Shown piece after piece: positions 14,728-32,000 of a DNA stretch of 32,000 nt (its first letter is position 1; every line of letters starts with the position of its first letter). This stretch comes from Candidatus Pacearchaeota archaeon (GTDB lineage: Archaea; Nanobdellota; Nanobdellia; Pacearchaeales; UBA284), in the NCBI GenBank assembly GCA_026016245.1, contig CP061211.1, positions 540,001 through 572,000 of the forward strand. The letters run 5' to 3'. Under the pieces are notes generated by a model. The model was given only the letters and a program-made list of their open reading frames with translations. It did no database searches and had not been told where the DNA came from. Both the position numbers and the translations under genes were made by a program.

Positions 14728-14991
14728 ATGACAGGGAATGAAAAAAGTTTAGATGAGATTTTTGGTTTTTTTGTAGGAACTCCGATAAGACTAGATGCTG
14801 AGATCAATGGAGTGCATCTAAAAGGTCTTTATGTTTTTGCTGGAAACTGTAAAGCAGGAGTTAAATGCATCAAAGTTGAAATAGTGGATAATAGAATAAG
14901 ATATGCCAAATCATGTACAATAATAAGAAGTGCTGAACAAGTTAATTCTGTAACTGAAATACCACCTTTACTTGACTACTTTAAGTTATAA
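14728..14991 (+). CDS. Hypothetical small protein (87 aa)
   Basis: ORF with normal composition; no recognised motif. Confidence 0.4.
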   Translation: MTGNEKSLDEIFGFFVGTPIRLDAEINGVHLKGLYVFAGNCKAGVKCIKVEIVDNRIRYAKSCTIIRSAEQVNSVTEIPPLLDYFKL

Positions 14992-15029
14992 TAGGAAAAA
15001 CATTTAAAGAAATTCTTTTTTAGAAAATT

Positions 15030-15668: not shown

Positions 15669-15742
15669 ATATACCTATGGAAATAGGGATTATAGAATAC
15701 TAAAATTTATAAATTAAATTCTATTGTTTATTAAAGAAAAAG

Positions 15743-18307: not shown

Positions 18308-19030
18308 TTATTTTTCATATAAAGTATAGTAGGCTATTGTTATTATTGCTGCTAGAAGTAGAGCTATGATTATCGTCGCAAAAGTGTTTGTCAGGTTCAT
18401 TAATAGCAAGATAAATAAAGAGAATATGAAAGCAAAGAACCATGTTACTCTTGTGCTGTTCAGGATTTTGAATCCAAGGCCAATAGGAATTAATGTTAAA
18501 AAGGCAAGCCATGCACATATCATTGCAAACTCGTTGTAGCCAGCTACTCTTATGATAAGGCCCAGAATGAGAACAGCAATAGGGCCGGAGAGTGCTATCT
18601 TTCCAATATCAGCCTCTGTAAGCTCTTCCCATCTTCTTCTTACTCGGCTAGGTTTTGGTTCAATATCAAAGTTAAGGATGGCAAGCCACTTAAAAAAGCC
18701 GTTTGTGATAATAACTAAAATTAAAGGCAAAGCAAGCCAGGCTGGAAATTCAAATGGAAATTCTGCTTTTGCTCCTTCTCTTAATGGCCTGAACCAATAT
18801 TTTCTGAAACTTAAGAGTTTAATTCTTATTTTACAGTCAAGATAGTCTGCTGTTGCTTTTTGAGCAAGAACAAAAATTCCTAATATTGCTAGAGAGAGAA
18901 GAAAGTAGATGAAAAAATCATCTGGCTCAAAACTGATCATCGGCAATGAGACATTTAAAGCAAGCACAAAACCTAAAAATAAAGATGCTAGGACTATGAT
19001 GGTAATTTCCTTGATCAGATCTTTTTCCAT
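18308..19030 (-). CDS. M50/S2P-like polytopic membrane protein lacking the catalytic motifs (putative pseudoprotease)
   Basis: Aligns by eye with the bona fide S2P in this window. FVLAQKATADYLDCKIRIK matches THEFAHGVFARYYKIKIK, KIALSGPIAVLILGL matches LSILSAGTFSNFIFAI, and AFLTLIPIGLGFKIL matches ALLNMLPLGILDGGKF. HExxH and the LDG Asp are both replaced. Confidence 0.5.
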   Translation of the reverse strand: MEKDLIKEITIIVLASLFLGFVLALNVSLPMISFEPDDFFIYFLLSLAILGIFVLAQKATADYLDCKIRIKLLSFRKYWFRPLREGAKAEFPFEFPAWLALPLILVIITNGFFKWLAILNFDIEPKPSRVRRRWEELTEADIGKIALSGPIAVLILGLIIRVAGYNEFAMICAWLAFLTLIPIGLGFKILNSTRVTWFFAFIFSLFILLLMNLTNTFATIIIALLLAAIITIAYYTLYEK

Positions 19031-19052: not shown

Positions 19053-21344
19053 TTATATTTTTTTCTTTTTTAGCTCTTTTTTAAGCCAGTCCTGCCATTC
19101 CTTGAAAACTTGTCTGCCCTGAGGTACTCCAATATCTTGTCTTACTTTATCACTTATATTATGAAACATATTATTTGCTTTAAGAACCCATGGTGCCTCA
19201 AGTAATTGTGGCCTCTTTATTTTCTTGGCTGTTTTTACCATTGCTTCTTTTATTTTTGCCCTCAGTAAGATATTGTCCCAGACAGCATCCCAACTTCCTG
19301 CCCATCCTTTGACATTTCCTGCAATATCTTTCAAAATCTCGCTTTCTCCATTAATAAGATCATCAGTTGGAATAAGCTCATCTTTTCTTACATCATACCT
19401 AAATAAGTCAAGGAAACCATGTTCAATACTAGGGTCAGATATCCAGTGCTTTCTTATTTCAGCAAGCTGCAAGACTCTTCTCCATCTGTGGAGACCATCA
19501 GGACTTTTGATTGGATTACATATAAGAATTATATCTGTTGCTTTGAAACTTGTTGCCGGCACTTTCAAATCATTAACAACCCTATCAAAAACTCCATAAG
19601 GACTTGCTCCATGAATTGTTCCTGCCACTACATTAGCTAAAGCACCAATTCTCATGGCTTCATATAATGCCAAAGCTTCTTCACTTCTTACCTCACCTAC
19701 TATCAAAGAAGAGTCTCCAAGACGCAGAGAAGTACGGATACCTTCTGCTGCACTCATTTCTGTTGTTTCTCTTGCCAAAGCTTCTCTAACTTTCATTCTT
19801 AAAATATCATAACCAAGGTCTCGAAGAGAATTAACTGGCAGTTCCATTGTTCCTTCAATAACAATAACTCTATAACGCGGCATAATCTCTAACATGCAGG
19901 CCCCTAACATAGATGTTTTACCAGAGCTTCTTGTTCCTGCAATAATTAGGGTTCTGCCTCCATCAATCAAGAAAGAGAGAACACCAGCTGTCATCGGATT
20001 AATCATTCTGTTTTGAATAAAAAGAGGCAGGGTCCATGGTTTTTCTCTATGTCTTCTGATTGCATAAGCCAAACCATAAGGACTTAATGGTTTTTGAATT
20101 ATAGATACTCTTGCCCTTGCTGCCCCAATTATTAATTCAGTGTCAAGAACAGGATTAGCTTCATCTAATGCCCTCCCAGAAATCATTCTAAATTTAGCTG
20201 CCCATGATTCAGCATCTTCATGACTTGGAATAATATTAGTATTACACTCATCAAATTCTTGATGTCTTATAAATATAGGAACAATGCCTATAGGTGCATT
20301 AATCATTATGTCCTGAATTTTATCATCCTGTAAAAGCACTTCTACTAAACCAAAACCAATAGTATGCCTTACAAGAATTACTGCTAATTTGTTTATTTGC
20401 CTATAACTTAGAGATATTTTTTTTGTTTCAGCAAGCTCTCTGATAAGGTCACGGGCAATATTAAAGAAAACCTGTCTTATTCTAGATGGGTCAACAAATT
20501 CTTCTGCCCTTGGTTTGTGTTCGAGCAAGACATTCCTGGCCATATTAACTAGGCTTTGGAGTTCTTCAGATAAAGTGAATTCAGGAGCCATAATATGATA
20601 AATATCTTTGGTTTTCCCAGGAATTTTCAGTATAGTGATTGTACTTTTATCATATTCTGGGCCTATATCATATTGGTCAATGATTTCAGATTCTGGAGGA
20701 AAAGAAGACATTAACCTAGTGAATGTAAAGTTAGGAACTATCTCTGGCCTAAAAATTTCTTTGTATAGTGTTCTGTCTCCAACTTTATGCCCTAAAAGTC
20801 TTTCTTTTACTATTTTTATTATTGTCAAGCCCTCTAGCAAAGAGAGTATTTTTGTTAAAAGTCTGATATAATGCATCTCAGAAGTTTGTTCTGCTTTAGG
20901 AAGTTTTTTCGCAATGATTCTTTCTTCTCTGAGCAATCTTTTTGCTTCAACATAACAAGCCAGAGGATCTTGTTTAAGAAGAGTTAAAACAAGATAACGC
21001 ATTGTGTCATATCTTTGTGGCAGGTATTTTTTGTATTTGTATGGTTCTAGTGTTGAGGTTTCTAGAACTTTCACTTGTTTTATTAAATGCACATAAAGCT
21101 GCCCAACTTCAACTAGCAATGAGACTTGTCTGAAATCATAACTATAGTTTCTTTGCTGGACAAAAACCACTCTTGAAACATTTGGTGATTCAATAATAGA
21201 TTCAACAGTGCGGGCCATTACAATAGGAGAATCTGCGATAGTTGGCACATAGGGAGCACCAAGATAATTAATATACATAACATCCTGGCCAGCCTCTCTT
21301 GTGATTTCATAAGCATATAATTTTGTTTCTGGTTTAAAAATCAT
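19053..21344 (-). CDS. Type II/IV secretion-family ATPase (FlaI/PilB/VirB11 superfamily), enlarged 763-aa form
   Basis: Walker A GTRSSGKTSMLGA, VIVIEGTMELP, Walker B/Asp-box region SSLIVGEVRSEEA, His box AGTIHGASP. Long N-terminal (~450 aa before Walker A) and C-terminal (~120 aa) regions. Confidence 0.9.
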   Translation of the reverse strand: MIFKPETKLYAYEITREAGQDVMYINYLGAPYVPTIADSPIVMARTVESIIESPNVSRVVFVQQRNYSYDFRQVSLLVEVGQLYVHLIKQVKVLETSTLEPYKYKKYLPQRYDTMRYLVLTLLKQDPLACYVEAKRLLREERIIAKKLPKAEQTSEMHYIRLLTKILSLLEGLTIIKIVKERLLGHKVGDRTLYKEIFRPEIVPNFTFTRLMSSFPPESEIIDQYDIGPEYDKSTITILKIPGKTKDIYHIMAPEFTLSEELQSLVNMARNVLLEHKPRAEEFVDPSRIRQVFFNIARDLIRELAETKKISLSYRQINKLAVILVRHTIGFGLVEVLLQDDKIQDIMINAPIGIVPIFIRHQEFDECNTNIIPSHEDAESWAAKFRMISGRALDEANPVLDTELIIGAARARVSIIQKPLSPYGLAYAIRRHREKPWTLPLFIQNRMINPMTAGVLSFLIDGGRTLIIAGTRSSGKTSMLGACMLEIMPRYRVIVIEGTMELPVNSLRDLGYDILRMKVREALARETTEMSAAEGIRTSLRLGDSSLIVGEVRSEEALALYEAMRIGALANVVAGTIHGASPYGVFDRVVNDLKVPATSFKATDIILICNPIKSPDGLHRWRRVLQLAEIRKHWISDPSIEHGFLDLFRYDVRKDELIPTDDLINGESEILKDIAGNVKGWAGSWDAVWDNILLRAKIKEAMVKTAKKIKRPQLLEAPWVLKANNMFHNISDKVRQDIGVPQGRQVFKEWQDWLKKELKKKKI

Positions 21345-21503: not shown

Positions 21504-21896
21504 ATGGATGAAAGAGAGTTAGGAGCTGTTTCTGCTCTTCTGACAGAATTTAGTACTAGAGTGAATGATTTAGAAGAAAGGAGTAGATTGATTAGGGAAA
21601 GGCTTCTTACTTTAAGTCAAACCGTATTGAAACAGAATGAAAGGCTGAACAAGGAAATTGGTGTTTTAAAGGAAGACATGAGAGAGATTAGAAATGAGAG
21701 TGATAGATTAAAAGAAGCTGTTGAGCATATTATCCGTGAGAGTTCTGAGCTAGCAAGAAAAGAAGAGCTGAGAGTTGTGGAGAGATATATGAAACTTTTT
21801 GAGCCACTTAAATTTGCAACTATTGAGGATGTTAAGAGGATTGTGAAGAAAGAGCTAAAAAAGAAGAAGGATGGAATTATAGAGATAGAAGAATAA
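21504..21896 (+). CDS. Hypothetical coiled-coil protein (130 aa)
   Basis: Heptad-rich sequence (LEERSRLIRERLLTLSQTVLKQNERLNKEIGVLKEDMREIRNE); divergent from the ATPase. Confidence 0.55.
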   Translation: MDERELGAVSALLTEFSTRVNDLEERSRLIRERLLTLSQTVLKQNERLNKEIGVLKEDMREIRNESDRLKEAVEHIIRESSELARKEELRVVERYMKLFEPLKFATIEDVKRIVKKELKKKKDGIIEIEE

Positions 21897-21917
21897 AAAA
21901 TTTAAAAATAAAAAATA

Positions 21918-22802
21918 ATGCTTAAAAATAAAAATATGCCAAAAAAAACACCTGTTAATGAAGTTCTTAGGTTGATTAAACAGGGCTATACAGATGCAGA
22001 TATAATTCGTTATTTGAGAGAACAAGATTATAGTCCAACTGAAATAAATGATGCCATGAATCAGGCAAAGATTAAGATAGAGCTAGCTGAGACTGCTGGT
22101 ATGGAAACTGAAGTTGCTCCTGCTGAATATGCTGAAACAGCAGAAGAGGAAATGACTCCATCAATAATGTCTCAAGAAGAAGTTGAGGCTGGGCCAGTTT
22201 ATTATGCTCCGGCGCCAGCAGAAGAAGAAGCTCCAGCTGAAGCGCCTGTAGAAGAAGTTCCTTTAACAACAGAAGCAGGATATCCTTATTCTTATCCATA
22301 TGCTTATCCTACTGAAGCTCCTGGAGCTCAGGTTATGCCATCAACAACAGAGATGGAAGAACTTGCTGAAGAAATCATAAATGAAAAATGGCAAGAGTTC
22401 ATGAGAAAAGCTGGGGACATTCCAGAATTCAAAACTAATGTCAAGTCAAGGCTAAAAAGCGCTGAGGACAGAACCAAGAGATTGGAGAGAGCTTTTGAAA
22501 GGCTTCAAGAAACAACTTTATTAAGAGTACAGGAACAAGGGAGGGATATTAAGGCATTAAGTACAGAGATAGGGGCATTAGAAGGAGCTTTTAGTAAAAT
22601 TTTAGAGCCATTAACAACATCAGTAAAAGAATTAATAGAACTAAGCGAGGAAATAAAGGGAATAAAACCAAAAGAAGCAGCAAAAATAAAGAAAGCAGTA
22701 ATAAAAGTAGAAAAAGCTTTAAAGACAAAAGCAAGACCAAAAACAAAAGCAAAAAAAGCAATCAAGAAAAAAACAATAAAGAAGAAAGTAAAGAAAAAAT
22801 AA
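21918..22802 (+). CDS. Hypothetical protein: small helical N-domain, Pro/Ala/Glu linker, coiled coil, Lys-rich tail
   Basis: N-terminus VNEVLRLIKQGYTDADIIRYLREQDYSPTEINDAMNQA. Linker with YPYSYPYAYP. Coiled coil with ALEGAFSKILEPL. Tail KAKKAIKKKTIKKKVKKK. Confidence 0.55.
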   Translation: MLKNKNMPKKTPVNEVLRLIKQGYTDADIIRYLREQDYSPTEINDAMNQAKIKIELAETAGMETEVAPAEYAETAEEEMTPSIMSQEEVEAGPVYYAPAPAEEEAPAEAPVEEVPLTTEAGYPYSYPYAYPTEAPGAQVMPSTTEMEELAEEIINEKWQEFMRKAGDIPEFKTNVKSRLKSAEDRTKRLERAFERLQETTLLRVQEQGRDIKALSTEIGALEGAFSKILEPLTTSVKELIELSEEIKGIKPKEAAKIKKAVIKVEKALKTKARPKTKAKKAIKKKTIKKKVKKK

Positions 22803-23776: not shown

Positions 23777-24707
23777 AGAAAATACATTCTGCTTCTGGCA
23801 AGTTTGGAGAATCAATCATTTTTGCAACTCTTGAATCTTTTCTTCCTCTTCTTAAATAAATTCGGTATGTTGAGGCATGGCCAACAATATGTCCGCCAAT
23901 TGCTTGTGTTGGATCTCCGAAAAGAACATCAGGACGGGCCATGACTTGGTTTGTTATATAAATAGCAAGATTGTTTGCTTCAGCAATCCTCATTAGACTA
24001 TGTAAATGCTTGTTGATTCTTTGCTGCCTGTCTGCCAACATTCCACGACCTGTAAACTCTGCTCTGAAATGTGCTGTAATTGAGTCAACTATCAAAAGTC
24101 GTATTGGTTCTCCTCTCCTTATTAAATCATTAACTTTCTCTACTAGAAGAATTTGATGATCACTATTGAAAGCACGAGCAACAAAAATATTCTTTAATGT
24201 TTTCATTGGATCTAGACCCTGGGCCTGAGAGATTTGTTTTATTCGCTCTGGTCTGAATGTTCCTTCTGTATCAATCCACACAACCTTAGCATTAGCACCA
24301 CCTTTTTCTTTAGGAAGTTGGGTTGTTACAGCAATCACATGCGCTATCTGGCTTTTTCCAGTACCATATGCACCAAAAGTTTCTGTTATAGCTCTTGTTT
24401 CTATCCCCCCACCTAACAATGCATTTAGATTTTTGCTTCCTGTGCTGATTTTGAAAATTTCTTCCCTCTTTTTTAGATATTCTGTTGCATCTTCAAATTC
24501 AAGATGGAGCATTTTTCGAGCTGCAGCTATAGCTTTTCTTGCAGAAGCCCCAGTAATATCAGCCACAGTGCTTAAATCATTAGGAGTCATTACTGCTATG
24601 CTCATTAAATCACCATAACCTACTGATTCTAGTTTTGATGCTGTTGTCTGGCCAATGCCAGGTAAATCTGTTAACTTCATCTCTTTTTTATCTTTGTCCT
24701 TAGCCAT
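23742..24707 (-). CDS. radA: DNA repair and recombination protein RadA
   Basis: N-terminal HhH (LTDLPGIGQTTASKLESVGY), Walker A GAYGTGKSQ, Walker B LLIVDS. Confidence 0.95.
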   Translation of the reverse strand: MAKDKDKKEMKLTDLPGIGQTTASKLESVGYGDLMSIAVMTPNDLSTVADITGASARKAIAAARKMLHLEFEDATEYLKKREEIFKISTGSKNLNALLGGGIETRAITETFGAYGTGKSQIAHVIAVTTQLPKEKGGANAKVVWIDTEGTFRPERIKQISQAQGLDPMKTLKNIFVARAFNSDHQILLVEKVNDLIRRGEPIRLLIVDSITAHFRAEFTGRGMLADRQQRINKHLHSLMRIAEANNLAIYITNQVMARPDVLFGDPTQAIGGHIVGHASTYRIYLRRGRKDSRVAKMIDSPNLPEAECIFFITADGLQDEI

Positions 24708-24761: not shown

Positions 24762-25733
24762 TTATTTGCTTAATTCCATAATAATATCATCTGGGTTAAC
24801 TTCTTTTAAACTGTTAATAATAAACTCATTTCTGTTGAACATTACATTTTTTCTAGCTCTGCCAGAAAAGAGCATTTCAGCTCCCAAAATTTCCTGTTTT
24901 TTGTCGAGCATGAAAGATGAATCTTGCAGTTTTTCTATCTCCTCTTCTTTTATCTTGAATATGTTAGTTATTGTCTCATTAAATGCTACTGCTCTCATGC
25001 TTTCACTCCCATCATCAATAATCAGGCTAATCAATGCTCTTTTTTTTGGGATAACAGCATTATGTTTCATGCATACAGCTTTATCTCCTTCATAAGAAAC
25101 TTTCATACCACATTCTGGGCAGGTCATGAAAAAGTTTGGCTGGAAAACCTGGACAATATTACCCCTAACACTCACCCCCTCCCCAGGTTGTAATTCAGAG
25201 AGTTTCTTTATTGGCAGTGTTTCTTTTCTTATTTTTACTGTCTTAATTTCCTTATCACTTAACTCAATACTTGAATTAGAACTAAGATGGATCTCTCTTA
25301 TTGTTGTGCCTCTTACATCAGCATTTTTTATATCAACAACAGAGTCTTTCTTAATTGTTCCATTTTTTATCTTGTCTATGTGGTGGGTATCCCACAAAAC
25401 AACACGAATACTTGAGCTATCATCAGCAAGTAAGAAGGAACCTATCTCCCCTTCATGTTCTGCTCTCCTAAATTTTCTTGTGGGATAAATCTCAATTACT
25501 TTTCCTATGGTTTGAATTTTTTTCATTCCTATAAGCATATCAATTACCTTAAATTTTTGTTTCTCAAAACTTATTCCAAGTTCAGCTGCTACAACTTGGG
25601 CTGCTCCTAAACTACTAATAAGGCCAGAAAGCTTAGCTTTTTTTGCATCTACTCTCCTTTGTATCTCTTCTATACCAAGACCAGAAAGACGAGCTATTCT
25701 CTCTATAAGTTGTTGATATGTTGCGTGAATCAT
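24762..25733 (-). CDS. Replication protein A-like ssDNA-binding protein (OB folds plus zinc ribbon)
   Basis: N-terminal IERIARLSGLGIEEIQRRVDAKKAKLSGLISSLGAAQVVAAELGI is typical of archaeal RPA. OB-fold region. Zinc ribbon CPECG...CMKH. Confidence 0.75.
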   Translation of the reverse strand: MIHATYQQLIERIARLSGLGIEEIQRRVDAKKAKLSGLISSLGAAQVVAAELGISFEKQKFKVIDMLIGMKKIQTIGKVIEIYPTRKFRRAEHEGEIGSFLLADDSSSIRVVLWDTHHIDKIKNGTIKKDSVVDIKNADVRGTTIREIHLSSNSSIELSDKEIKTVKIRKETLPIKKLSELQPGEGVSVRGNIVQVFQPNFFMTCPECGMKVSYEGDKAVCMKHNAVIPKKRALISLIIDDGSESMRAVAFNETITNIFKIKEEEIEKLQDSSFMLDKKQEILGAEMLFSGRARKNVMFNRNEFIINSLKEVNPDDIIMELSK

Positions 25734-25856: not shown

Positions 25857-26657
25857 CTAAATTATCATTGCAAATTTTAATATAATTTTTTCAAATTTCA
25901 TTCCTTTATCCTCAAAAAAGAAATATTCTTCTGTTTCTAATTCAAATATAAGATATGAGCCTTGTTTTTTTACATCAACTGTCCATCCATCAAACTCAAG
26001 TTTATTTTTTACACAAAGAACCATATCAACAGCTTCTTCATCTCTGCATTCTCTTATATCAGAATTTGTTTTTATATAAATGAAATCAAAACTATCTAGA
26101 TTTATATTCTCTTCTTCCAAGATTAAGGTTATAGAAGGATTAAATTCATATTCAAGCTTATAGGTTGCAAAAGTTCCTTTTTCTTCACTGCTAAATGTTT
26201 TGGGATCAGTTTTTGTTTTTATTTCTCCATTTTCAAAAGTATGTGTGTAGGTTATGTCTGTAAGGTTTGTTTCAGAATATGCCTTTAGAGAATCAAAGAA
26301 ACTTTTTCCATACTCATCTGTGAATTTGTTCTGCAAGAAGATTTTTTCTGGCATACAATTTGAGTTCCATATTATTGTATCTCCAGTAACAGTGCAAGAA
26401 GGATTGTCTTTGTCTATTGCAGAATCTTTTACAATCTCATAAAAAGCCTGCGATGCTGCTAGTTTTGATGATTCATTGATGTAGAAGGAAAGCCTATCAC
26501 CCATGTTTTTTATATTTATTGAAGCAGTAGTTTTGATAACTCCAGCATTAATATTTTTGTTTGTGGTTGAGAAAGCATGCCATGACATTCCTATGAAGAT
26601 GATCATTCCTAAAACCAAGCCAATTGCAAATACTCCTGCTTTTTTGTTTTTTATCAT
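25857..26657 (-). CDS. Pilin-like protein 11 of operon (266 aa), class III signal peptide
   Basis: MIKNKKAG|VFAIGLVLGMIIFIGM. 4 Cys in the mature part. The ATG overlaps the upstream stop (ATGA). Confidence 0.65.
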   Translation of the reverse strand: MIKNKKAGVFAIGLVLGMIIFIGMSWHAFSTTNKNINAGVIKTTASINIKNMGDRLSFYINESSKLAASQAFYEIVKDSAIDKDNPSCTVTGDTIIWNSNCMPEKIFLQNKFTDEYGKSFFDSLKAYSETNLTDITYTHTFENGEIKTKTDPKTFSSEEKGTFATYKLEYEFNPSITLILEEENINLDSFDFIYIKTNSDIRECRDEEAVDMVLCVKNKLEFDGWTVDVKKQGSYLIFELETEEYFFFEDKGMKFEKIILKFAMII

Positions 26658-27070
26658 TTTATTTCTAATCGTATGGTTATTATTTCATCAGATGGAATAT
26701 AGAATAATGAACCTGCTTGTTTGTTGAATTCATAATTATAGATGCCAAGGGATTTTTCTGCCTCCTGATTTAATATTTCTTCATATATTGGATTAATCTT
26801 AGAAAGCCTTATTAGTTCAGCTATTGTTATATCTTGTTTCTCCTCTTCAATTTCTATCTCTACTGTTTTTTGAAGCCATGCTTGAAGAGAGAGATGTTCC
26901 TGGTCTTTTGTTATCTGTTCTGTGGCAATTTTTTCTATTTCTTTTTTTGGAGCGCCCCATAATACAGTGGATATAATGATAAAAATTATTAGAAGAAGAG
27001 CAACAATTACAAGTCCAACTGTATCTTGTACAAGCTCTCCTGCCTGTGCTTTTTTATTTTTTATCTCCAT
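26654..27070 (-). CDS. Pilin-like protein 10 (138 aa), class III signal peptide
   Basis: MEIKNKKAQAG|ELVQDTVGLVIVALLLIIFIIIS. The signal is near-identical to that of protein 9. Confidence 0.7.
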   Translation of the reverse strand: MEIKNKKAQAGELVQDTVGLVIVALLLIIFIIISTVLWGAPKKEIEKIATEQITKDQEHLSLQAWLQKTVEIEIEEEKQDITIAELIRLSKINPIYEEILNQEAEKSLGIYNYEFNKQAGSLFYIPSDEIITIRLEIK

Positions 27071-27075
27071 TTTAT

Positions 27076-27531
27076 TTACAGATTTTTTTCAACTTTTTTA
27101 ATTGCCAAAAATAAATCTATCTTAGTATCTTCATTATTTTTGAGAACATAATATTCCTCTTGCAAGCATGATGGGTAATACTTGACTTTCACTTTTTCTT
27201 TTTCAGCTTGACATAGAGCAAAGAGAAATTCATCACCAAGAGCAATATTATCATTTTTTAAAGTTATGTTAATATAGATCTCTTGTTCATTAAAGTACAT
27301 ACAATCTCTTATGGCATCTTCACTGAATTCATCAACAATACCATTTGGGGCAACACACTCCATTATATTTCTAGCTACTGTGCTTGCTTCAATATCACGC
27401 ATATCATACTGCTTGGAATAGTGGGCTGTCACAACTGCAACCACCCCCCCAACAACAATAACTAATATGAGGAATTTGTGAAGCCAGGTCACTGCATGTC
27501 CTGCCTGTGCTTTCTTATTTTTTATCTTCAT
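27076..27531 (-). CDS. Pilin-like protein 9 (151 aa), class III signal peptide
   Basis: MKIKNKKAQAG|HAVTWLHKFLILVIVVGGVVAVV; 4 Cys. Confidence 0.7.
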   Translation of the reverse strand: MKIKNKKAQAGHAVTWLHKFLILVIVVGGVVAVVTAHYSKQYDMRDIEASTVARNIMECVAPNGIVDEFSEDAIRDCMYFNEQEIYINITLKNDNIALGDEFLFALCQAEKEKVKVKYYPSCLQEEYYVLKNNEDTKIDLFLAIKKVEKNL

Positions 27532-27548
27532 TTTTCTATTTTTTCATT

Positions 27549-27896
27549 TTATCTTATATTTATAATCGTGAAAGCATCTTTTCTTGAAAAATCCACATTA
27601 TCCTTAAGATAACAATCATAGAAATAGCCTCTATCAAATTCCCCCTCTTTGACCACAACACCATTACCCTCTTTTTCTATACTTACTCTAGTATCATGCT
27701 CTATTATAATTCTTGTTCCTGGCTCAGCTGTTGATATAAGGAGACAAGTTTCTTTTGCAAGAACCTGTTTTTTCATTGCTATTCCTGAAGCTTGATTACT
27801 GACCCATAAAGTGAGAATGATTATTATAGCTATGATGAAGATAAGAGTGAAGATAAATTCCCACCCAAGTTCAACACCTCTTTTATCTTTAAGCAT
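27549..27896 (-). CDS. Pilin-like protein 8 (115 aa), class III signal peptide
   Basis: MLKDKRG|VELGWEFIFTLIFIIAIIIILTLWV; 2 Cys. Confidence 0.7.
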   Translation of the reverse strand: MLKDKRGVELGWEFIFTLIFIIAIIIILTLWVSNQASGIAMKKQVLAKETCLLISTAEPGTRIIIEHDTRVSIEKEGNGVVVKEGEFDRGYFYDCYLKDNVDFSRKDAFTIINIR

Positions 27897-27917
27897 TTTA
27901 TCGAAAAAGTATCAGGA

Positions 27918-28841
27918 TTATGGAATACTCTCTATATTATTGCATACTGCACCTATTTCAGAAGCTTTCATAGGTGCAAGAATAAGATGATAACAGCCTT
28001 CCCATTCTTCGTTACATTTTGAGGATACATATGAATTACCTATTATAGTTGATACTGCTTGTGTTCCTAATGCTGATCCAACAACAATAGCAACAACTAT
28101 TGGATGTTTAAATGCTGTGCTGGCTACTTTTCCAATTAATCTTCCAGTAGTCCAAGGTCCAGTTGTTACCATACTTACTGCTCCGAGCCCTGCTACTATT
28201 TTCAAATCATTTTTAAGAACTTCCCAATAACTTCTACCACGTATGCCCATATAAATAATTACATAATCTGAATCAGTTCTTATTTTTGGGGCCTCTATAC
28301 CTACAGCAAGATCTTTATCTGCCTGGTCTGTGAAATATTCATAATAGGTTATGTTGCTAAGAGGAATCTTAGTTTGTACAAGATAATTAAACATATCTAT
28401 TTCCTTTACTTTTTCTTTAACATTATCATCGAACTTTATAGTAGTACAGATAACACAAGCTGATTTGGGGTAACCTGCTCCTGGAACAGCATAACTTTGC
28501 CAGATACTTTCACTAAAAAAATCCATTTCTCCCTCACCTAACATCCACCAACAGTCATACATCTGGTTTGCTATCTCTCTTTTGATAAAGTTTTCATCTG
28601 TTGAGCTTATTTCTATATGCTGTGTTTTGCAATTTAATGGAATACCAGCAAGCTGTCCAGGTTGCAGGCCAGCTATCTCCTGACTTCTTAGAATTACAGA
28701 TTGATGACATGCCTCTTTATTGATTGTTTCCTCATAAGGAAAAATTTTCAGAAAATAAAAAAGTATTGCAGCAGTTATTATTAGAATCACAATACCTATA
28801 ATAATGTTCTGGACTAAAGCCCCTTTTTTGTTTTTCATCAT
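27918..28841 (-). CDS. Pilin-like protein 7 (307 aa), class III signal peptide plus a second Gly/Ala/Val-rich hydrophobic region
   Basis: MMKNKKG|ALVQNIIIGIVILIITAAILFYF. 8 Cys. Residues ~213-268 (IVAGLGAVSMVTTGPW...IVVAIVVGSALGTQAVSTIIG) are hydrophobic. Confidence 0.7.
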   Translation of the reverse strand: MMKNKKGALVQNIIIGIVILIITAAILFYFLKIFPYEETINKEACHQSVILRSQEIAGLQPGQLAGIPLNCKTQHIEISSTDENFIKREIANQMYDCWWMLGEGEMDFFSESIWQSYAVPGAGYPKSACVICTTIKFDDNVKEKVKEIDMFNYLVQTKIPLSNITYYEYFTDQADKDLAVGIEAPKIRTDSDYVIIYMGIRGRSYWEVLKNDLKIVAGLGAVSMVTTGPWTTGRLIGKVASTAFKHPIVVAIVVGSALGTQAVSTIIGNSYVSSKCNEEWEGCYHLILAPMKASEIGAVCNNIESIP

Positions 28842-28871
28842 CTTAATTTGTATTTTTATTTATATAAATTT

Positions 28872-29003
28872 TTATATTACCCCATATCTCTTCAACAGAT
28901 AAATTATCATACCTCCAATTATTGCAAAAAGTATTATTAAAAATAATATTTTGATTAGTGTTTCAACTGCCATGGCTTTCTTGTTTATTTTCTTTTTTAT
29001 CAT
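28872..29003 (-). CDS. Pilin-like mini-protein 6 (43 aa), class III signal peptide
   Basis: Hand translation MIKKKINKKA|MAVETLIKILFLIILFAIIGGMIIYLLKRYGVI. The ATG overlaps the SLT gene stop (ATGA). Below the track cutoff. Confidence 0.55.
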   Translation of the reverse strand: MIKKKINKKAMAVETLIKILFLIILFAIIGGMIIYLLKRYGVI

Positions 29004-30079
29004 ATCAACTCCATTTTTGCCCTAATTTTTTCTGCATAAATACGTCCGGCAAATGTTGATGGGCATCCTGTAATTGTTAATGGTTCACAATTATTTCTTA
29101 CTCCGCCAGAGCCAGTATTATATGCAGCTATCCCTAACCATTGATTTTGAAATTCAGCTATTCTTTCAGCAAGGAATCTTGTACCAGCATCAATGTTTTT
29201 TATAGGATTAAATCTTTCATCTTCTTCTTTATTGCAATTTTCTGGATGTACTTTATTGCAAATTGATATTGAAGTTCTTTTTTCAGACATGCATGGAGAA
29301 AGCTGACTTATATCTTCTGTTCCATAGTCAGGCACAGAAAGACCGAGCAGCTTGGCTGTTTGTGGCATGATTTGCATTAGTCCCACTTCACCATCACAAC
29401 CTATTGCATCCTCAACAGATAGAGATTCCTGAATTATTATTGCTCTGATAATTTTTTCAAATTCCTCTTTGTTTGCAATATAATTACTAAGTTGATATTG
29501 GCTGTAGTATTTTTCTACTATGCTCGCCAACTCGCTATCCCACTCCTTTGTTTTCATCTTATTATAAGCAAAATTAACATCTACTTTTTCTTCCTCACTT
29601 AATTTTACCCCTACTACTGCAAGTTCTATCTTACTTACCTCATAATGATCTATTTGATGTGCAAGCCAGATATCCACAATTTCAATCTTTATGTTAGCAG
29701 GCTTTTCTTCTTGTTTTAAAGGCAGTTCAATCACACGACAGAGTTTGCTTTCACATTTTTTCTTACAAACACAAAGAACATTTTTTTGGAATAATGTTGT
29801 AGGTTTTTGGAAATTCTCATTAATATTGTGTTGCTCATCAAAAGCAACTACATACCAGCCTTTAGGAGCTAAAAGAGTGTATCTTGCTACTTCAGCTTCT
29901 TCAAGGCTGTTTAGTTCTTGTATTAAACTATCTAGTGTTCCTTGTGCCTGCATTTCATCCTGTTTACCAAAATATGTTCTGAAAAGGATAGTGCTAGCAT
30001 ATAGGAGAATAAGGATAACAGCAATTGCAACTATTATTTCAATTATTTGTTTAAGCAAAAGCAAACCTCTTTTGTTCAT
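29000..30079 (-). CDS. Pilin-signal-anchored lytic transglycosylase (SLT domain), 359 aa
   Basis: The track start at 30094 is TTG; the ATG at 30079 gives MNKRG|LLLLKQIIEIIVAIAVILILLYA. The C-terminal half carries the family-1 LT motifs in order: IIIQES (catalytic Glu-Ser), GLMQIMPQTA, AAYNTGSGG. 10 Cys. Confidence 0.8.
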   Translation of the reverse strand: MNKRGLLLLKQIIEIIVAIAVILILLYASTILFRTYFGKQDEMQAQGTLDSLIQELNSLEEAEVARYTLLAPKGWYVVAFDEQHNINENFQKPTTLFQKNVLCVCKKKCESKLCRVIELPLKQEEKPANIKIEIVDIWLAHQIDHYEVSKIELAVVGVKLSEEEKVDVNFAYNKMKTKEWDSELASIVEKYYSQYQLSNYIANKEEFEKIIRAIIIQESLSVEDAIGCDGEVGLMQIMPQTAKLLGLSVPDYGTEDISQLSPCMSEKRTSISICNKVHPENCNKEEDERFNPIKNIDAGTRFLAERIAEFQNQWLGIAAYNTGSGGVRNNCEPLTITGCPSTFAGRIYAEKIRAKMELI

Positions 30080-30125
30080 AAAAGAAACATACAAAGATAT
30101 TATTTAAAATTTCTTGTTATTATTA

Positions 30126-30305
30126 CTACTGAACTTGTGTTGCGTTCCAAAGACCGAGAGCATTTTTAAGTTTTGCCATCAAATCAGACATGAACTGCCT
30201 CATTGCTCCAGAGAAAATGAGGACAATAACAACAAGAACAATAATAGCAAGAATTATAATCACAATAGTATTGATTGAGAGTCCTACAGCCTTCTTGTTG
30301 CGCAT
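30126..30305 (-). CDS. Pilin-like protein 4 (59 aa), class III signal peptide
   Basis: Hand translation MRNKKA|VGLSINTIVIIILAIIVLVVIVLIFSGAMRQFMSDLMAKLKNALGLWNATQVQ. Below the track cutoff. Paralogous N-terminus to protein 3. Confidence 0.6.
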   Translation of the reverse strand: MRNKKAVGLSINTIVIIILAIIVLVVIVLIFSGAMRQFMSDLMAKLKNALGLWNATQVQ

Positions 30306-30310
30306 TTTGC

Positions 30311-30685
30311 TTACTTGCTTCTTATAGTTTCACACATGTCTGAAGTAAATCCTGCCCCTAGACATTCTTCCTCATCCAATGCTTTGATAAGATTGTTATC
30401 ACAGTAGACTGGTAGGGTTCCTATAACTTCTCCATCTGACATTTCTCTTATTGTAAATTCATGTGTGCAAAAACTGGTTTTGTCTCCAGCGCTGCAATAT
30501 AGAGTGCATGCATTCCTAGTCTGTTCTATGTCTGTTTGTGAATAGGCCCCAGGGATTGGTATGATCTTTTGCCAAAGTTGTTGTATTCCTCCAGTAAAGT
30601 AAAGTGCAAGAATAACTAGAACAAGAATTGCAAGAATTACTATAATTATTGTATTAACGTTTAACTCAACAGCTTTCTTATTCAT
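30311..30685 (-). CDS. Pilin-like protein 3 (124 aa), class III signal peptide
   Basis: MNKKA|VELNVNTIIIVILAILVLVILALYF; 6 Cys in the globular part. Confidence 0.7.
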   Translation of the reverse strand: MNKKAVELNVNTIIIVILAILVLVILALYFTGGIQQLWQKIIPIPGAYSQTDIEQTRNACTLYCSAGDKTSFCTHEFTIREMSDGEVIGTLPVYCDNNLIKALDEEECLGAGFTSDMCETIRSK

Positions 30686-30740
30686 TTTTTACCTCTTTTT
30701 ATTTTTTTATTAAGTATGACTTGTTTTTAAAATTTTCTTT

Positions 30741-31331
30741 TTATTCAGCACATCTCTCAAGCTGAATTATGGGTGGTTTTTCATAGCTTATCACAAAATA
30801 AAGCCCATCTTGTTTTTTGTAAAAGAAAGGACTTATAACATTAATTTCTTCACTCCACCATAAAGCACCTTTTTTTGACCCCTCTTGTTTAAACAATGGT
30901 GGCTCTTTACTGAAGTCAACAACTTTTTTTATTCTGTAAGGAACTTCTTGTTTTGTTTCGTAAAATATTGCAGAAATCTTCAGATCACTTAGAGTAGTGC
31001 TTTTATAATCCTTATTTCCGTGAGTTAGTGTGATTTCTACAGCGCGCCCAGGTAATTCAGTAAAAACAAGGTTTGAATTCTGAACAAAACTTGCTGGAAA
31101 ATTAGGCAGGCCGTCACATACGCAATCATTATTCTGCAAAGAAAGACATTTGTCTATATTGCTGATAAGGACATCAAAATTATCTTCATTCTGCTGTTGC
31201 TGTTCTATGTTAAGCTTCCCCCCTCTTATTGCCGCATAGAGAGGATTGAAAAAACCAAGAAGTATAAGCACGACAACAGCTATTACTATTACAGCGATTG
31301 AAGCTCTAATAATCTCCCATATTCCCATCAT
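30741..31331 (-). CDS. Pilin-like protein 2 (196 aa), short atypical class III-like signal
   Basis: MMG|IWEIIRASIAVIVIAVVVLILLGFF. It lacks the Lys run but keeps Gly followed by a hydrophobic helix with an early Glu. 4 Cys. Confidence 0.55.
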   Translation of the reverse strand: MMGIWEIIRASIAVIVIAVVVLILLGFFNPLYAAIRGGKLNIEQQQQNEDNFDVLISNIDKCLSLQNNDCVCDGLPNFPASFVQNSNLVFTELPGRAVEITLTHGNKDYKSTTLSDLKISAIFYETKQEVPYRIKKVVDFSKEPPLFKQEGSKKGALWWSEEINVISPFFYKKQDGLYFVISYEKPPIIQLERCAE

Positions 31332-31339
31332 TTTTATTT

Positions 31340-31495
31340 CTACCTACCAAATCTCAAAAAAGCTTTGAGTTCTTCTAAAATATTTACCCCTCGTTTTTGT
31401 AAAACAAATATAAAGATTATGACAAGAGCAAGAACAACTAGTCCAATAACCCACCAGTTTATCTCGCTCCAGACCAAACCTCTTTTGTTTTTCAT
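31340..31495 (-). CDS. Pilin-like mini-protein 1 (51 aa), class III signal peptide; first gene of operon
   Basis: Hand translation MKNKRG|LVWSEINWWVIGLVVLALVIIFIFVLQKRGVNILEELKAFLRFGR. ATG at 31493-31495, TAG at 31340-31342. Below the track cutoff. Confidence 0.6.
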   Translation of the reverse strand: MKNKRGLVWSEINWWVIGLVVLALVIIFIFVLQKRGVNILEELKAFLRFGR

Positions 31496-31550: not shown

Positions 31551-32000
31551 ATGAACAGGTTATTGGCTATTTTTTTATCTTTATCTACTGCTATTTCTCC
31601 AATTGCTCTAGCACAAGAATATCAGGGAATGAAGCTGGAACAAAGAATAAAGGATTTTAATGAGGTCATCAGAAGAAGGAATTTCTCAAATTATGATGTG
31701 CCTATAATTCATCTTCAAGTAGTTGATAAGGATTCTAAATGGCCTTTGGAAGATGCAAGAGTTGAATTAAAACATGAGGATAAGAGGATAACAGATGGTT
31801 ATCCTGTCCCTGGAGATTATATGTATTATAATCCTTATAGATCCAAAACTGATGAAGAAGGAAATGTTATTTTTAGCGTGACTCCATGTCATGAAGAGGA
31901 AATAACAAGATTAGAAGTAAAGTGCCAAGGTTATTATCCAATTGATGTAGATTTTCCCTTGCTTAATCTTTTAGCACATATTAATAACACTTTAAGTAAC
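31551..32000 (+). CDS. Secreted protein, partial (first 150 aa), Sec signal peptide; possible carboxypeptidase-regulatory-like beta domain
   Basis: Hand translation MNRLLAIFLSLSTAISPIALA|QEYQGMK..., then HLQVVDKDSKWPLEDARVEL...KTDEEGNVIFSV. Open to the window edge, so not in the track. Confidence 0.55.
   Translation, partial: MNRLLAIFLSLSTAISPIALAQEYQGMKLEQRIKDFNEVIRRRNFSNYDVPIIHLQVVDKDSKWPLEDARVELKHEDKRITDGYPVPGDYMYYNPYRSKTDEEGNVIFSVTPCHEEEITRLEVKCQGYYPIDVDFPLLNLLAHINNTLSN

What the first reader, a model, noticed from the sequence alone, without database searches (positions are those of the whole stretch)
25857..31495. Eleven-gene operon in which every product starts with a class III (type IV pilin-like) signal peptide
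Eleven consecutive minus-strand genes have gaps of -4 to 55 nt and two ATGA start/stop overlaps. All of their products open with M-x(0-8)-[KR]-[GA] followed by a ~20-residue hydrophobic helix. The N-termini are MKNKRG|LVW, MMG|IWE, MNKKA|VEL, MRNKKA|VGL, MNKRG|LLL, MIKKKINKKA|MAV, MMKNKKG|ALV, MLKDKRG|VEL, MKIKNKKAQAG|HAV, MEIKNKKAQAG|ELV and MIKNKKAG|VFA. This is the archaeal prepilin-peptidase (PibD/FlaK) substrate pattern. Mature parts range from ~20 to ~330 aa, and I recognise no similarity in them except the SLT domain. Cys counts in the eight larger products are all even (4, 6, 10, 8, 2, 4, 0, 4), which fits disulfide-bonded extracellular domains. Three members (51, 59 and 43 aa) are invisible in the ORF track. 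Eleven different pilin-like subunits in one transcription unit of a reduced-genome archaeon suggests a multi-subunit surface fibre or pseudopilus. Such a structure is plausibly the host-contact apparatus of an episymbiont. No FlaB-type archaellin or FlaF/G/H/J genes accompany it.
Basis: partly seen in the sequence, partly recalled or inferred. Interest (0 to 1): 0.88.

Follow-up and report, generated by a model that had tools for sequence, protein, structure and literature searches.

The report
Pacearchaeal pilus operon with wall-cutting pilin
This operon encodes the ten or so pilin-like subunits of a previously unannotated type IV filament machine found across the tiny Pacearchaeota archaea, and one subunit carries a swappable bacterial-cell-wall-cutting enzyme, which hints that these archaea use the filament to attack or attach to bacteria.

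Summary
The eleven co-directional genes are real. Ten of the eleven products carry a conserved N-K-[KR]-[GA] leader followed by a hydrophobic helix. The second gene (g2, 196 aa) does not.

Comparison with 84 related loci shows this is the substrate array of a type IV filament (TFF) system found in at least 592 species-level Pacearchaeota genomes. The usual gene order is TadA/FlaI-like ATPase, a 724-aa platform, about ten pilin-like genes in conserved order, then an A24 prepilin peptidase.

In the window's clade the ATPase (19053-21344) and the peptidase are unlinked from the array. The platform lies about 1 kb beyond the window end. Pfam does not recognise it, but fold matches (EpsF, OutF, PilC) and divergent family members that hit T2SSF identify it.

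No curated pilin family matches the subunits. Their mature domains are unrelated to one another and to solved structures.

The main new point concerns g5, a modular pilin-like carrier. In the window's clade it carries SLT (GH23). In a close relative the same carrier (51% identical) carries a FlgJ-like GH73 glucosaminidase, and in others an MltA-type 3D domain. These are three unrelated peptidoglycan-cleaving modules.

Not shown: signal cleavage, a filament, or an A24 gene in this genome. Verdict: a new variant of a known kind.

The parts
31340..31495 (-). g1: 51-aa headless pilin-like protein, MKNKRG|LVW..., with a conserved C-terminal FGR
   Evidence: ORF. Orthologues occur in about 60-76 loci, almost always as the first gene after the platform. 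87% have the leader motif.
30741..31331 (-). g2: 196-aa bitopic protein with an N-terminal helix but no conserved class III leader. Either an accessory protein or a 'leaderless' subunit.
   Evidence: only 37% of orthologues have [KR][GA]. It fails the FlaFind core motif.
30311..30685 (-). g3: 124-aa pilin-like subunit (MNKKA|VEL...), a candidate abundant filament subunit
   Evidence: It has the only strong Shine-Dalgarno (AGAGGT) and a 55-nt upstream gap. There are 41 homologues with a near-invariant N-terminal 38 aa and 6 conserved Cys. The AF2 model (pLDDT 84) has helix 3-41 plus a small alpha/beta head, with no PDB fold match. Other clades carry 1-3 tandem copies next to A24.
30126..30305 (-). 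g4: 59-aa headless Flp-like subunit (MRNKKA|VGL...)
   Evidence: Weak Pfam Flp1_like hit (E=4e-4) and NCBIfam prepilin N-terminal hit (E=3e-3). Flp1_like recurs in 5 of 142 orthologues of the small families.
29000..30079 (-). g5: 359-aa modular pilin-like protein. The carrier is residues 1 to about 166 (a conserved Trp and four conserved Cys, three of them in the CxCxxxC stretch). The SLT/GH23 lytic transglycosylase module is residues about 196-359 (nt 29003-29494). An alternative TTG start lies at 30094.
   Evidence: Pfam SLT scores 79 bits against a cut-off of 21.3. The QES, GLMQIMP and AAYNTG motifs align to Slt 5OHU/6FBT. The carrier occurs in about 63-71 loci. The module is replaced by GH73 in L010 and L019 and by a 3D domain in L016 and L017.
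28872..29003 (-). g6: 43-aa headless pilin-like protein (MIKKKINKKA|MAV...), with an ATGA overlap with g5
   Evidence: The leader is present in 50% of orthologues.
27918..28841 (-). g7: 307-aa minor-pilin-like protein with 8 Cys, the most widely conserved large subunit
   Evidence: 71 orthologues in 68 loci, 89% with the leader. No PDB relative by profile.
27549..27896 (-). g8: 115-aa minor-pilin-like protein (MLKDKRG|VEL...)
   Evidence: 96% with the leader.
27076..27531 (-). g9: 151-aa minor-pilin-like protein, probably cleaved at KKA|QAG
26654..27070 (-). g10: 138-aa minor-pilin-like protein, KKA|QAGE, with Q at +1 in 39 of 47 orthologues
   Evidence: Weak ComGD hit at E=0.017.
25857..26657 (-). 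g11: 266-aa minor-pilin-like protein and last gene of the unit, with an ATGA overlap with g10
   Evidence: No PDB relative. T-rich tracts follow the gene, and a separate A/T-rich element precedes RPA.
19053..21344 (-). Assembly ATPase of 763 aa (T2SSE family, TadA/CpaF/FlaI-like) with an N-terminal extension of about 300 aa
   Evidence: Pfam T2SSE 2e-10. NCBIfam FlaI 8e-38 (below the equivalog cut-off) and TadA 7e-33. PDB: afGspE2 2OAP 4e-28, CpaF 3e-23, FlaI 6e-17. It is adjacent to the platform in most related loci (63 of 84 within 10 kb).
21504..22802 (+). Two coiled-coil proteins (130 and 294 aa) divergent from the ATPase, possible cytoplasmic accessory parts
   Evidence: They co-occur with the ATPase in 50 and 46 of 63 loci. 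No family assignment.
18308..19030 (-). 240-aa polytopic membrane protein directly downstream of the ATPase, a conserved neighbour of unknown role
   Evidence: Found near the ATPase in 29 loci. No family. The M50-like idea was rejected.

Best explanation
The operon encodes the secreted and assembled subunits of a Tad/Epd-like type IV filament (TFF) machine that is a core feature of Pacearchaeota.

Proposed mechanism:
1. Each product (g1 and g3-g11) inserts into the membrane through its N-terminal helix.
2. An A24 aspartic prepilin peptidase removes the short N-K-[KR]-[GA] leader on the cytoplasmic side.
3. The 724-aa two-repeat T2SSF-type platform, which lies about 1 kb upstream just outside the window, and the 763-aa TadA/CpaF/FlaI-like ATPase (19053-21344) extract the mature subunits from the membrane and polymerise them through their hydrophobic helices.
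4. The headless or small-headed subunits (g1, g4, g6, g3) would form the fibre.
5. The six products with larger, mutually unrelated, Cys-containing heads (g5, g7-g11) would act as low-abundance 'minor pilins' that prime or cap it.
6. g5 is a modular pilin. Its conserved carrier presents a peptidoglycan glycan-strand-cleaving enzyme. This is SLT/GH23 here, and GH73 or a 3D domain in relatives. The filament or its base can therefore cut murein, most plausibly that of a bacterial host or prey, since archaea are not known to make murein.

Shown here: the gene set, its conservation and order, the leader motif, the identities of the ATPase, platform and peptidase, the intact SLT motifs, and the module swap.

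Inferred: cleavage, polymerisation, which subunit is the major one, tip location of g5, and the bacterial target.
For: - **Observation:**
- **Synteny:** in L005 the order is ATPase, platform, 11 small genes, then Peptidase_A24 (Pfam 47.3 bits against a cut-off of 26.5).
- **Across 84 loci:** the platform family was matched in at least 592 species-representative genomes. The order ATP-PLAT-1-(2)-5-6-7-8-9-10-11-3-A24 recurs. The ATPase is within 10 kb in 63 loci and A24 in 45. The catalytic D24 and GGD86 of A24 are 100% conserved.
- **Leader:** N58%/K87%/[K66 R34]/[G66 A34] over 544 N-termini, present in 87-96% of members of eight families. Known archaeal processing sites have the same form (PMC4371748).
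- **Platform:** the AF2 model has pLDDT 82. The only Foldseek hits with probability 0.97-1.0 are EpsF, OutF and PilC cytoplasmic domains, with TM(target) 0.65-0.74. Divergent family members hit Pfam T2SSF above threshold (32.8 and 30.4 bits against 25.2).
- **ATPase:**
- **g3:** long N-terminal helix plus a small disulfide-rich head.
- **g5 modules:** SLT; Glucosaminidase PF01832 at E=6e-22 and 3D PF06725 on orthologous carriers; carrier 51% identical between the SLT and GH73 versions (E=1e-57) with unrelated C-termini; the GH73 module's nearest solved relative is FlgJ at 8e-9.
Against: - No A24 gene was found in the 49 kb of this organism's own DNA that I could read.
- No curated pilin or class III family reaches its threshold on any subunit.
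- Only 6 of 11 subunits match the FlaFind 1.2 core motif, and the g3 and g4 families match in about 10% of members.
- The g3 head has no structural match to any solved pilin (best Foldseek E=0.85).
- The platform does not hit T2SSF directly, and the Foldseek E-values for it are 0.5-2.7.
- g2 lacks the leader.
- No clear major pilin stands out.
- Muralytic modules occur only in the window's broader clade, in about 9 of 17 loci.
- No expression, cleavage or imaging data exist.
Confidence: 0.8

Rival explanations
1. The same machine builds no long fibre. It builds a short pseudopilus or a bindosome-like surface assembly. Its job would be to anchor and expose functional proteins such as the g5 enzyme at the cell surface, as the Sulfolobus Bas system does for sugar-binding proteins, or to push proteins out as in type II secretion.
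For: - Ten different subunits are encoded in one unit with roughly equal gene dosage and no obvious dominant pilin.
- An enzyme carries the class III-type leader.
- NCBIfam scores the ATPase against the bindosome ATPase BasE at 6.6e-18.
- The 2026 TFF preprint reports widespread class III signals on non-pilin binding proteins.
Against: - Three headless Flp-like subunits and a small-headed, tandemly duplicated g3 family are typical of fibre-forming pilins.
- The ATPase is closer to CpaF and afGspE2 than to BasE.
- No secretion substrates or binding-protein domains were found in the cluster.
Confidence: 0.12
2. The muralytic module on g5 serves the archaeon itself. It would open a murein-like wall of its own so that the filament can pass, as FlgJ, VirB1, EtgA and BfpH do in bacteria.
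For: The three module types (GH73, SLT, MltA-like 3D) are exactly the classes bacteria use to get trans-envelope machines through their own wall. The nearest solved relative of the GH73 module is FlgJ. A PAP2-type undecaprenyl-diphosphatase-like gene lies in the window.
Against: - Archaea are not known to possess murein (PMC5744192; PMC8204110).
- Most g5 orthologues (about 60 of 70) have no module although the rest of the machine is conserved. The module is therefore not needed for assembly.
- No mur genes were seen in the 49 kb examined.
Confidence: 0.04
3. The system is a competence-type pseudopilus that takes up DNA. This would suit organisms thought to live on scavenged nucleotides.
For: - RPA follows the pilin array in 42 loci in both gene arrangements. 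In the window, RadA and a PD-(D/E)XK nuclease follow too.
- g10 has a weak ComGD hit (E=0.017).
- Multiple minor pilins are typical of Com systems.
- Nucleotide-salvage metabolism has been proposed for Pacearchaeota (PMC8204110).
Against: - RPA and RadA are housekeeping genes, and the linkage may be inherited gene order.
- No ComEC or ComEA-like channel or DNA-binding domain was found in the cluster.
- The ComGD hit is not significant.
- The muralytic modules are not explained by this reading.
Confidence: 0.03
4. The N-termini are ordinary Sec-type signal anchors. The products would be unrelated membrane-anchored proteins that merely share composition in an AT-rich genome.
For: - No curated pilin family matches.
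- 5 of 11 fail the FlaFind core motif.
- g2 looks like a plain signal anchor.
- The g3 head is not a known pilin fold.
Against: - The N-K-[KR]-[GA] motif is conserved in position across 544 sequences. A generic anchor would not keep it.
- 0 of 29 other window proteins and 0 of 88 other ORFs show the pattern.
- The array keeps conserved physical linkage with the ATPase, platform and A24 peptidase.
Confidence: 0.01

Closest known systems
Archaeal TFF 'system 1' / Epd pilus of Methanococcus maripaludis (Makarova 2016, PMC4858521; Sivabalasarma & Albers 2026 preprint)
   Same: - A cluster of about 11-12 genes with a secretion ATPase, a TadB/C-type platform, a dedicated A24 peptidase and many different pilin-like genes.
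- Headless Flp-like subunits.
- Frequent Gln at +1.
- Reported in general terms as occurring in 'DPANN'.
   Different: - One fused two-repeat 724-aa platform gene instead of two platform genes.
- The platform and all pilin families escape Pfam and NCBIfam.
- The ATPase has an N-terminal extension of about 300 aa.
- The leader has its own N-K-[KR]-[GA] signature with Glu or Gly allowed at +2.
- A muralytic modular subunit is present.
- In the window's clade the ATPase and peptidase are unlinked.
- arCOG or clade membership was not tested.
Bacterial Tad/Flp pilus (CpaF/TadA, TadB/C, TadV, Flp, TadE/F)
   Same: - The ATPase's second-best solved relative is CpaF.
- Very short headless pilins.
- Pseudopilin-like minor subunits.
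- A dedicated A24 peptidase lacking a methylase domain.
   Different: - No secretin or outer-membrane parts.
- Archaeal-type leader (K/R at -2, G/A at -1) rather than the Flp G|XXXXEY motif.
- Far more distinct subunits.
Modular type IV pilins (S. sanguinis PilB/PilC; Raynaud et al. 2021, PMC8179133)
   Same: g5 has the same design: an N-terminal pilin-like carrier with a functional module grafted at the C-terminus. The module differs between relatives.
   Different: - Known modules are mainly adhesive (vWA, lectin).
- That paper's main text mentions no transglycosylase, lysozyme or hydrolase module.
- Its survey was confined to bacterial IPR012902 pilins.
- Here the modules are three classes of murein-cleaving enzymes, in an archaeon.
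Specialised lytic enzymes of bacterial trans-envelope machines (FlgJ GH73, VirB1/EtgA/BfpH SLT-type)
   Same: The same enzyme families are encoded inside the operon of a filament or secretion machine.
   Different: The bacterial enzymes are soluble or rod-associated and cut the cell's own wall. Here the enzyme is fused to a pilin-like carrier in an organism not known to have murein.
Large extracellular SLT-domain proteins of Woesearchaeota/Pacearchaeota (Castelle 2021 PMC8204110; Vigneron 2022 PMC9723730)
   Same: The same domain, the same lineages, and the same proposed target (bacterial cell walls).
   Different: Those are proteins of up to 3,000 aa with no reported link to pili. g5 is 359 aa, has a class III-type leader and sits inside the TFF subunit operon.
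Sulfolobus bindosome (Bas) system
   Same: Functional, non-structural proteins carry class III signals and depend on a TFF ATPase/platform pair.
   Different: Bas substrates are sugar-binding proteins, and no Flp-like subunits are involved.

Membership tests
Type IV filament (TFF) superfamily system | Hexameric secretion ATPase of the T2SSE / PilB / TadA / FlaI family | tested here: met
   Window 19053-21344: Pfam T2SSE scores 40.4 bits against a cut-off of 24.9. NCBIfam FlaI 8e-38 and TadA 7e-33. PDB 2OAP 4e-28 and CpaF 3e-23.
Type IV filament (TFF) superfamily system | Polytopic platform protein of the T2SSF / PilC / TadB-C / FlaJ family | tested here: met
   - The 724-aa protein itself has no Pfam or PDB sequence hit.
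- Its AF2 model (pLDDT 82) matches EpsF, OutF and PilC cytoplasmic domains at probability 0.97-1.0 and TM(target) 0.65-0.74.
- Divergent full-length members of the same family hit PF00482 above the cut-off (32.8 and 30.4 bits against 25.2).
- The gene lies outside the window (L001:6842-9016).
Type IV filament (TFF) superfamily system | A24 aspartic prepilin peptidase | tested here: inconclusive
   The peptidase is present and linked to the orthologous array in 45 of 84 related loci, with both catalytic Asp invariant. It was not found in the 49 kb available from this organism. The rest of the genome could not be read.
Type IV filament (TFF) superfamily system | Substrates with class III signal peptides: a short basic leader, G/A at -1, then a hydrophobic helix of about 20 residues | tested here: met
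   10 of 11 products meet this. The motif is conserved in 87-96% of orthologues in eight families. The FlaFind 1.2 core motif matches only 6 of 11. g2 does not meet it.
Type IV filament (TFF) superfamily system | Leader cleavage and polymerisation into a helical filament | not testable with these tools
   This needs N-terminal proteomics, cryo-ET or cryo-EM.
Archaeal TFF system 1 (Epd-type) | Two separate platform genes | tested here: not met
   A single 724-aa gene has two helical-bundle-plus-TM repeats.
Archaeal TFF system 1 (Epd-type) | EppA-type substrates with conserved Gln at +1 (PMC4371748) | tested here: inconclusive
   Gln at +1 occurs in 21% of pooled N-termini. It is dominant only in g10 (39 of 47) and common in g3 (34 of 81).
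Archaeal TFF system 1 (Epd-type) | ATPase, platform and pilins belonging to the system's arCOGs | not testable with these tools
   No arCOG library is available.
Curated pilin N-terminal families (Pfam Flp1_like PF16982, Class_IIIsignal, Pilin_N; NCBIfam prepilin-type N-terminal domain) | Score at or above the family's curated cut-off | tested here: not met
   The best result is g4 against Flp1_like at 20.1 bits, against a cut-off of 33.5. Only 5 of 142 orthologues match Flp1_like at E below 0.01. The NCBIfam hits are far below their cut-offs.
Type IV pilin fold | An N-terminal alpha-helix whose C-terminal half packs on a beta-sheet head resembling solved pilins | tested here: inconclusive
Archaellum | FlaB-type archaellins, FlaF/G/H, and a FlaI equivalog | tested here: not met
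   No archaellin, FlaF, FlaG or FlaH hits in the operon or its neighbours. The ATPase scores 130 bits against a cut-off of 550 for FlaI.
SLT / GH23 lytic transglycosylase (g5 C-terminal module) | Pfam SLT above threshold with the catalytic Glu-Ser, GLMQ and AYNxG motifs | tested here: met
   79.2 bits against a cut-off of 21.3. The QES, GLMQIMP and AAYNTG motifs align to Slt 5OHU/6FBT. Enzyme activity was not tested.
Modular type IV pilins | An N-terminal pilin module plus a grafted functional module joined by a linker | tested here: inconclusive
   The architecture and the module exchange are shown. Whether the carrier has a pilin fold, and whether it is incorporated into a filament, was not tested.

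The most novel reading that the evidence does not exclude
Pacearchaeota use this filament as a cross-domain attack or attachment device. A pilus or pseudopilus presents an exchangeable murein-cutting 'bit' (SLT, GH73 or 3D domain on subunit g5) that breaches the peptidoglycan of bacterial hosts or prey. On this reading, at least this clade of DPANN archaea are episymbionts or predators of bacteria rather than of other archaea.
Probability: 0.3. Interest if true: 0.9.

Novelty: new variant of a known kind. Interest (0 to 1): 0.7.

Why it matters
Pacearchaeota are among the most abundant uncultivated archaea in freshwater and groundwater. Their hosts and their way of contacting other cells are unknown.

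This analysis makes four contributions:
1. It assigns a function to a block of about 15 'hypothetical' genes that is conserved in at least 592 species-level genomes.
2. It shows that standard tools (Pfam, NCBIfam, the FlaFind core motif) miss both the platform and most of the pilins. That may be why earlier censuses could not find the cognate pilins of nanoarchaeal ATPases.
3. It reveals a pilin-like carrier on which three unrelated peptidoglycan-cleaving modules have been exchanged between close relatives.
4. It gives a concrete, testable molecular link between a DPANN surface machine and bacterial cell walls. This turns the 'which hosts?' question into experiments: enzyme assays on sacculi of candidate hosts, and cryo-ET of contact sites.

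Tried and rejected
- **Direct sequence link of the 724-aa protein to T2SSF.** Pfam, NCBIfam, a PDB profile search, hhalign against E. coli HofC, and hhalign of the N-half against the C-half were all negative. The question was only resolved by fold and by divergent family members.
- **Iterative HMM searches across the pilin families.** They drifted through the shared hydrophobic helix. I replaced them with best-family assignment. My first 'SLTdom' profile was contaminated by full-length sequences, so SLT counts rely on the SLT-only phmmer search and on Pfam.
- **A24 in the organism's own DNA.** tblastn on the window and two contig extensions found nothing.
- **Homology search with the SLT domain alone.** It gave only 2 hits.
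- **Metagenome scan with the g5 carrier.** It gave only 5 loci.
- **m240 as a degenerate M50 protease.** Rejected.
- **Paralogy among mature domains.** None was found.
- **Bacterial promoter and terminator scan.** No enrichment, and not applicable to an archaeon.
- **g7 and g11 profiles against the PDB.** Nothing was found.
- **Other large class-III-type proteins in related clusters.** Eight of the ten scanned have no Pfam domain.

Full report
**1. The observation**

The eleven minus-strand ORFs exist at the stated coordinates, with the stated spacing, two ATGA overlaps and the stated Cys counts. The array is complete. Upstream of 31495 lies a divergent + strand gene with an ordinary Sec signal (MNRLLAIFLSLSTAISPIALA|QEY). 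Downstream lies RPA, preceded by T-rich tracts and its own A/T-rich element.

The N-terminal pattern is not a by-product of AT-rich composition. Among 99 ATG-ORFs of at least 40 aa in all six frames of the window, the 10 that have [KR][GA] within 12 residues followed by a hydrophobic 19-mer are all in this operon. None of 29 other window proteins matches the FlaFind 1.2 core motif.

- g2 (MMGIWEIIRA...) has no basic residue before the proposed site, and its orthologues mostly start directly with the helix.
- g9 and g10 are better read as KKA|QAG.
- Only 6 of the 11 match the published FlaFind core motif [KRDE][GA][ALIFQMVED][ILMVTAS] (quoted in PMC4307647).

**2. Organism and context**

The window carries archaeal housekeeping genes and a pacearchaeosortase (E=1e-50). 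Identical proteins map to a 710-kb contig of a Candidatus Pacearchaeota MAG.

The window also holds a 763-aa T2SSE-family ATPase at 19053-21344. Its closest solved relatives are A. fulgidus GspE2 and the Tad ATPase CpaF, ahead of FlaI.

Extending the contig showed a 724-aa polytopic membrane protein about 1 kb upstream of the operon. It is separated from the operon only by the divergent Sec-signal gene, which is a lineage-specific insertion seen in 3 loci.

**3. The 724-aa protein is the platform**

- It has more than 4,200 homologues. The top 120 are 57-83% identical, and JGI names a few of them TadB.
- Direct sequence tests against T2SSF all failed.
- An AlphaFold2 model built from 111 homologues (pLDDT 82, pTM 0.79) shows two repeats of a helical bundle followed by long membrane helices.
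- In Foldseek against the PDB, the only hits with probability 0.97-1.0 are the cytoplasmic domains of EpsF, OutF and PilC. Their TM-scores normalised to the target are 0.65-0.74 at about 3 Å rmsd. Global E-values are weak, at 0.5-2.7.
- An exhaustive profile search found 1,256 cluster representatives. Of ten divergent full-length members, two hit Pfam T2SSF above the gathering score and four just below it, all over the first bundle.

Fold, transitive homology and gene context therefore agree.

**4. Comparative genomics**

With the platform as anchor I fetched 3 contexts and 80 species-representative loci out of at least 592 matches.

In L005 the genes run ATPase, a 59-aa gene, platform, eleven small genes, then a Peptidase_A24 gene (Pfam 47.3 bits against 26.5).

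Local phmmer and hmmsearch assigned orthologues of nearly all operon genes in 50-70 loci. The gene-order table shows a recurrent arrangement: ATPase, platform, 1, (2), 5, 6, 7, 8, 9, 10, 11, 3, A24, followed by a HIT gene and RPA. The ATPase is within 10 kb in 63 loci and A24 in 45. In those 45, the two catalytic aspartates (D24 and GGD86) are invariant.

The window's clade has a derived arrangement. Genes 3 and 4 have moved forward, RPA follows gene 11 directly, and the ATPase and A24 are unlinked. I could not find the A24 gene of this organism in the 49 kb accessible, so this remains the main gap.

**5. The leader**

Over 544 orthologous N-termini the composition is:

| Position | Composition |
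|---|---|
| -4 | N 58% |
| -3 | K 87% |
| -2 | K 66% / R 34% |
| -1 | G 66% / A 34% |
| +1 | Q 21%, then I, D, E, A |

A hydrophobic helix follows. Eight families keep the motif in 87-96% of members. g6 keeps it in 50% and g2 in 37%.

Experimentally mapped archaeal sites have the same form: EpdB-E KG|Q, EpdA RA|Q, UpsA KA|I and AapA RA|L (PMC4371748).

The g3 and g4 families usually have Glu or Gly at +2 and so fail the FlaFind core motif in about 90% of members. No curated pilin family reaches threshold on any subunit. Only Flp1_like recurs, and only weakly. This probably explains why these genes are annotated as hypothetical. It may also explain why an earlier census found nanoarchaeal ATPases without cognate pilins (PMC4858521).

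**6. The subunits**

- g1 (51 aa), g4 (59 aa) and g6 (43 aa) are headless.
- g3 (124 aa) has a near-invariant N-terminal 38 residues and six conserved Cys. Its model (pLDDT 84) is a 39-residue helix plus a small head with no match among solved structures.
- g3 has the only strong Shine-Dalgarno in the operon. It occurs in 1-3 tandem copies next to A24 in other clades, which would suit an abundant subunit. g1 is equally a candidate, because it always comes first after the platform.
- The heads of g2, g3, g5 and g7-g11 are unrelated to each other.
- g7 and g11 have no relatives in the PDB by profile.

**7. The g5 module swap**

The SLT domain of g5 is intact. Pfam gives 79 bits, and the QES, GLMQIMP and AAYNTG motifs align to Slt.

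Most g5 orthologues are 150-230 aa and consist of the carrier only. Among the long ones, Pfam finds three modules:
- SLT in four;
- Glucosaminidase (GH73, E=6e-22) in two (L010, L019);
- the 3D domain (MltA/YuiC type) in two (L016, L017).

Between the window and L010 (platform 78% identical), the carrier is 51% identical over 166 residues (E=1e-57), while the C-terminal modules share nothing. The nearest solved relative of the L010 module is the flagellar muramidase FlgJ (8e-9). A metagenome scan added one more diverged SLT-bearing carrier.

So three unrelated enzymes that all cut the glycan strands of murein occupy the same position on the same carrier. This argues that murein cleavage is the selected function.

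**8. Mechanism and rivals**

The best-supported model is a Tad/Epd-like type IV filament machine whose subunits are encoded here. g5 would be a modular, enzyme-bearing minor subunit.

Because archaea are not known to make murein, and because most lineages lack the module, the target is most plausibly foreign peptidoglycan. This matches earlier proposals based on large free SLT proteins in these lineages (PMC8204110, PMC9723730). Those studies did not link the enzymes to pili, and the 2026 TFF preprint does not mention such enzymes.

Alternatives are scored in the rivals section:
- a short pseudopilus or bindosome-like display system;
- self-wall remodelling;
- DNA uptake, prompted by the conserved RPA neighbour;
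- plain signal anchors.

Cleavage, polymerisation, subunit stoichiometry and enzyme activity are all inferred and not shown.

**9. Novelty**

TFF systems in DPANN are known in outline. The closest described relative is system 1, the Epd pilus, which also has an 11-gene cluster.

New here are:
- the delineation of this Pacearchaeota-wide system;
- its unrecognised fused platform and ten unrecognised subunit families;
- its distinctive leader;
- the exchangeable muralytic modules on one subunit.

I rate it a new variant of a known kind, with interest 0.7.

Noticed in passing
window 7721-8245 (+); L001:2463-3332 (-): A pacearchaeosortase (NCBIfam NF033505, E=1e-50). A CARDB-like secreted protein with a C-terminal TM helix and an RKKRKK tail lies about 13 kb beyond the window end and looks like a possible sortase substrate.
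   Followed up: partly
L001:4790-6704 (-), just outside the window end: Three paralogous four-TM proteins of 159-177 aa (pairwise E=1e-10 to 4e-4) and a 97-aa PRC-barrel protein lie divergently next to the platform gene. They stay near the platform or ATPase in 39-53 of 84 loci. They may be unknown accessory parts of the machine.
   Followed up: partly
window 21504-22802 (+): Two coiled-coil proteins (130 and 294 aa) are divergently transcribed from the ATPase and co-occur with it in 50 and 46 of 63 loci. No family assignment.
   Followed up: partly
window 18308-19030 (-): A 240-aa polytopic membrane protein sits 22 nt downstream of the ATPase and is conserved near it in 29 loci. A resemblance to M50 site-2 proteases that I suspected from reading the sequence was not supported (hhalign probability 1%).
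   Followed up: yes
window 24762-25733 (-), 23742-24707 (-), 22865-23776 (+): RPA directly follows the pilin array and does so in 42 related loci, in both gene arrangements. In the window, RadA and a PD-(D/E)XK nuclease follow. This may be inherited gene order, or a hint of a DNA-related role.
   Followed up: partly
window 31551-32000 (+), runs off the end: A 251-aa Sec-signal protein is inserted in the opposite orientation between the platform and the operon. It is found in only 3 of 84 loci, so it is a recent lineage-specific insertion. No family match.
   Followed up: partly
window 30741-31331 (-) and orthologues; g6 orthologues: g2 and half of the g6 orthologues begin directly with what looks like a mature pilin N-terminus (M[A]ELTISNLIKIIIG...). 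They could be 'leaderless pilins' that need no peptidase.
   Followed up: partly
window 19053-21344 (-): The ATPase carries an N-terminal region of about 300 residues that lies before the stretch matching FlaI, CpaF and TadA. It was not analysed further.
   Followed up: no
window 6484-7083 (-): A 199-aa membrane protein ends in a run of about 15 Glu-rich residues (EEEEEEEKEEESEEE). No family match.
   Followed up: no
L051:4124-8875, 12183-13874, 14376-16232 (+): Three paralogous large proteins (564-1584 aa) with ordinary Sec signals (…VSA|GWF) are inserted in and around the pilin cluster of one relative.
   Followed up: no
L063:5778-6827, L029:13348-14313, L068:11007-11912: Long g5 variants of other clades (300-350 aa) have C-terminal extensions with no Pfam match. 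These could be further, unrecognised grafted modules.
   Followed up: partly
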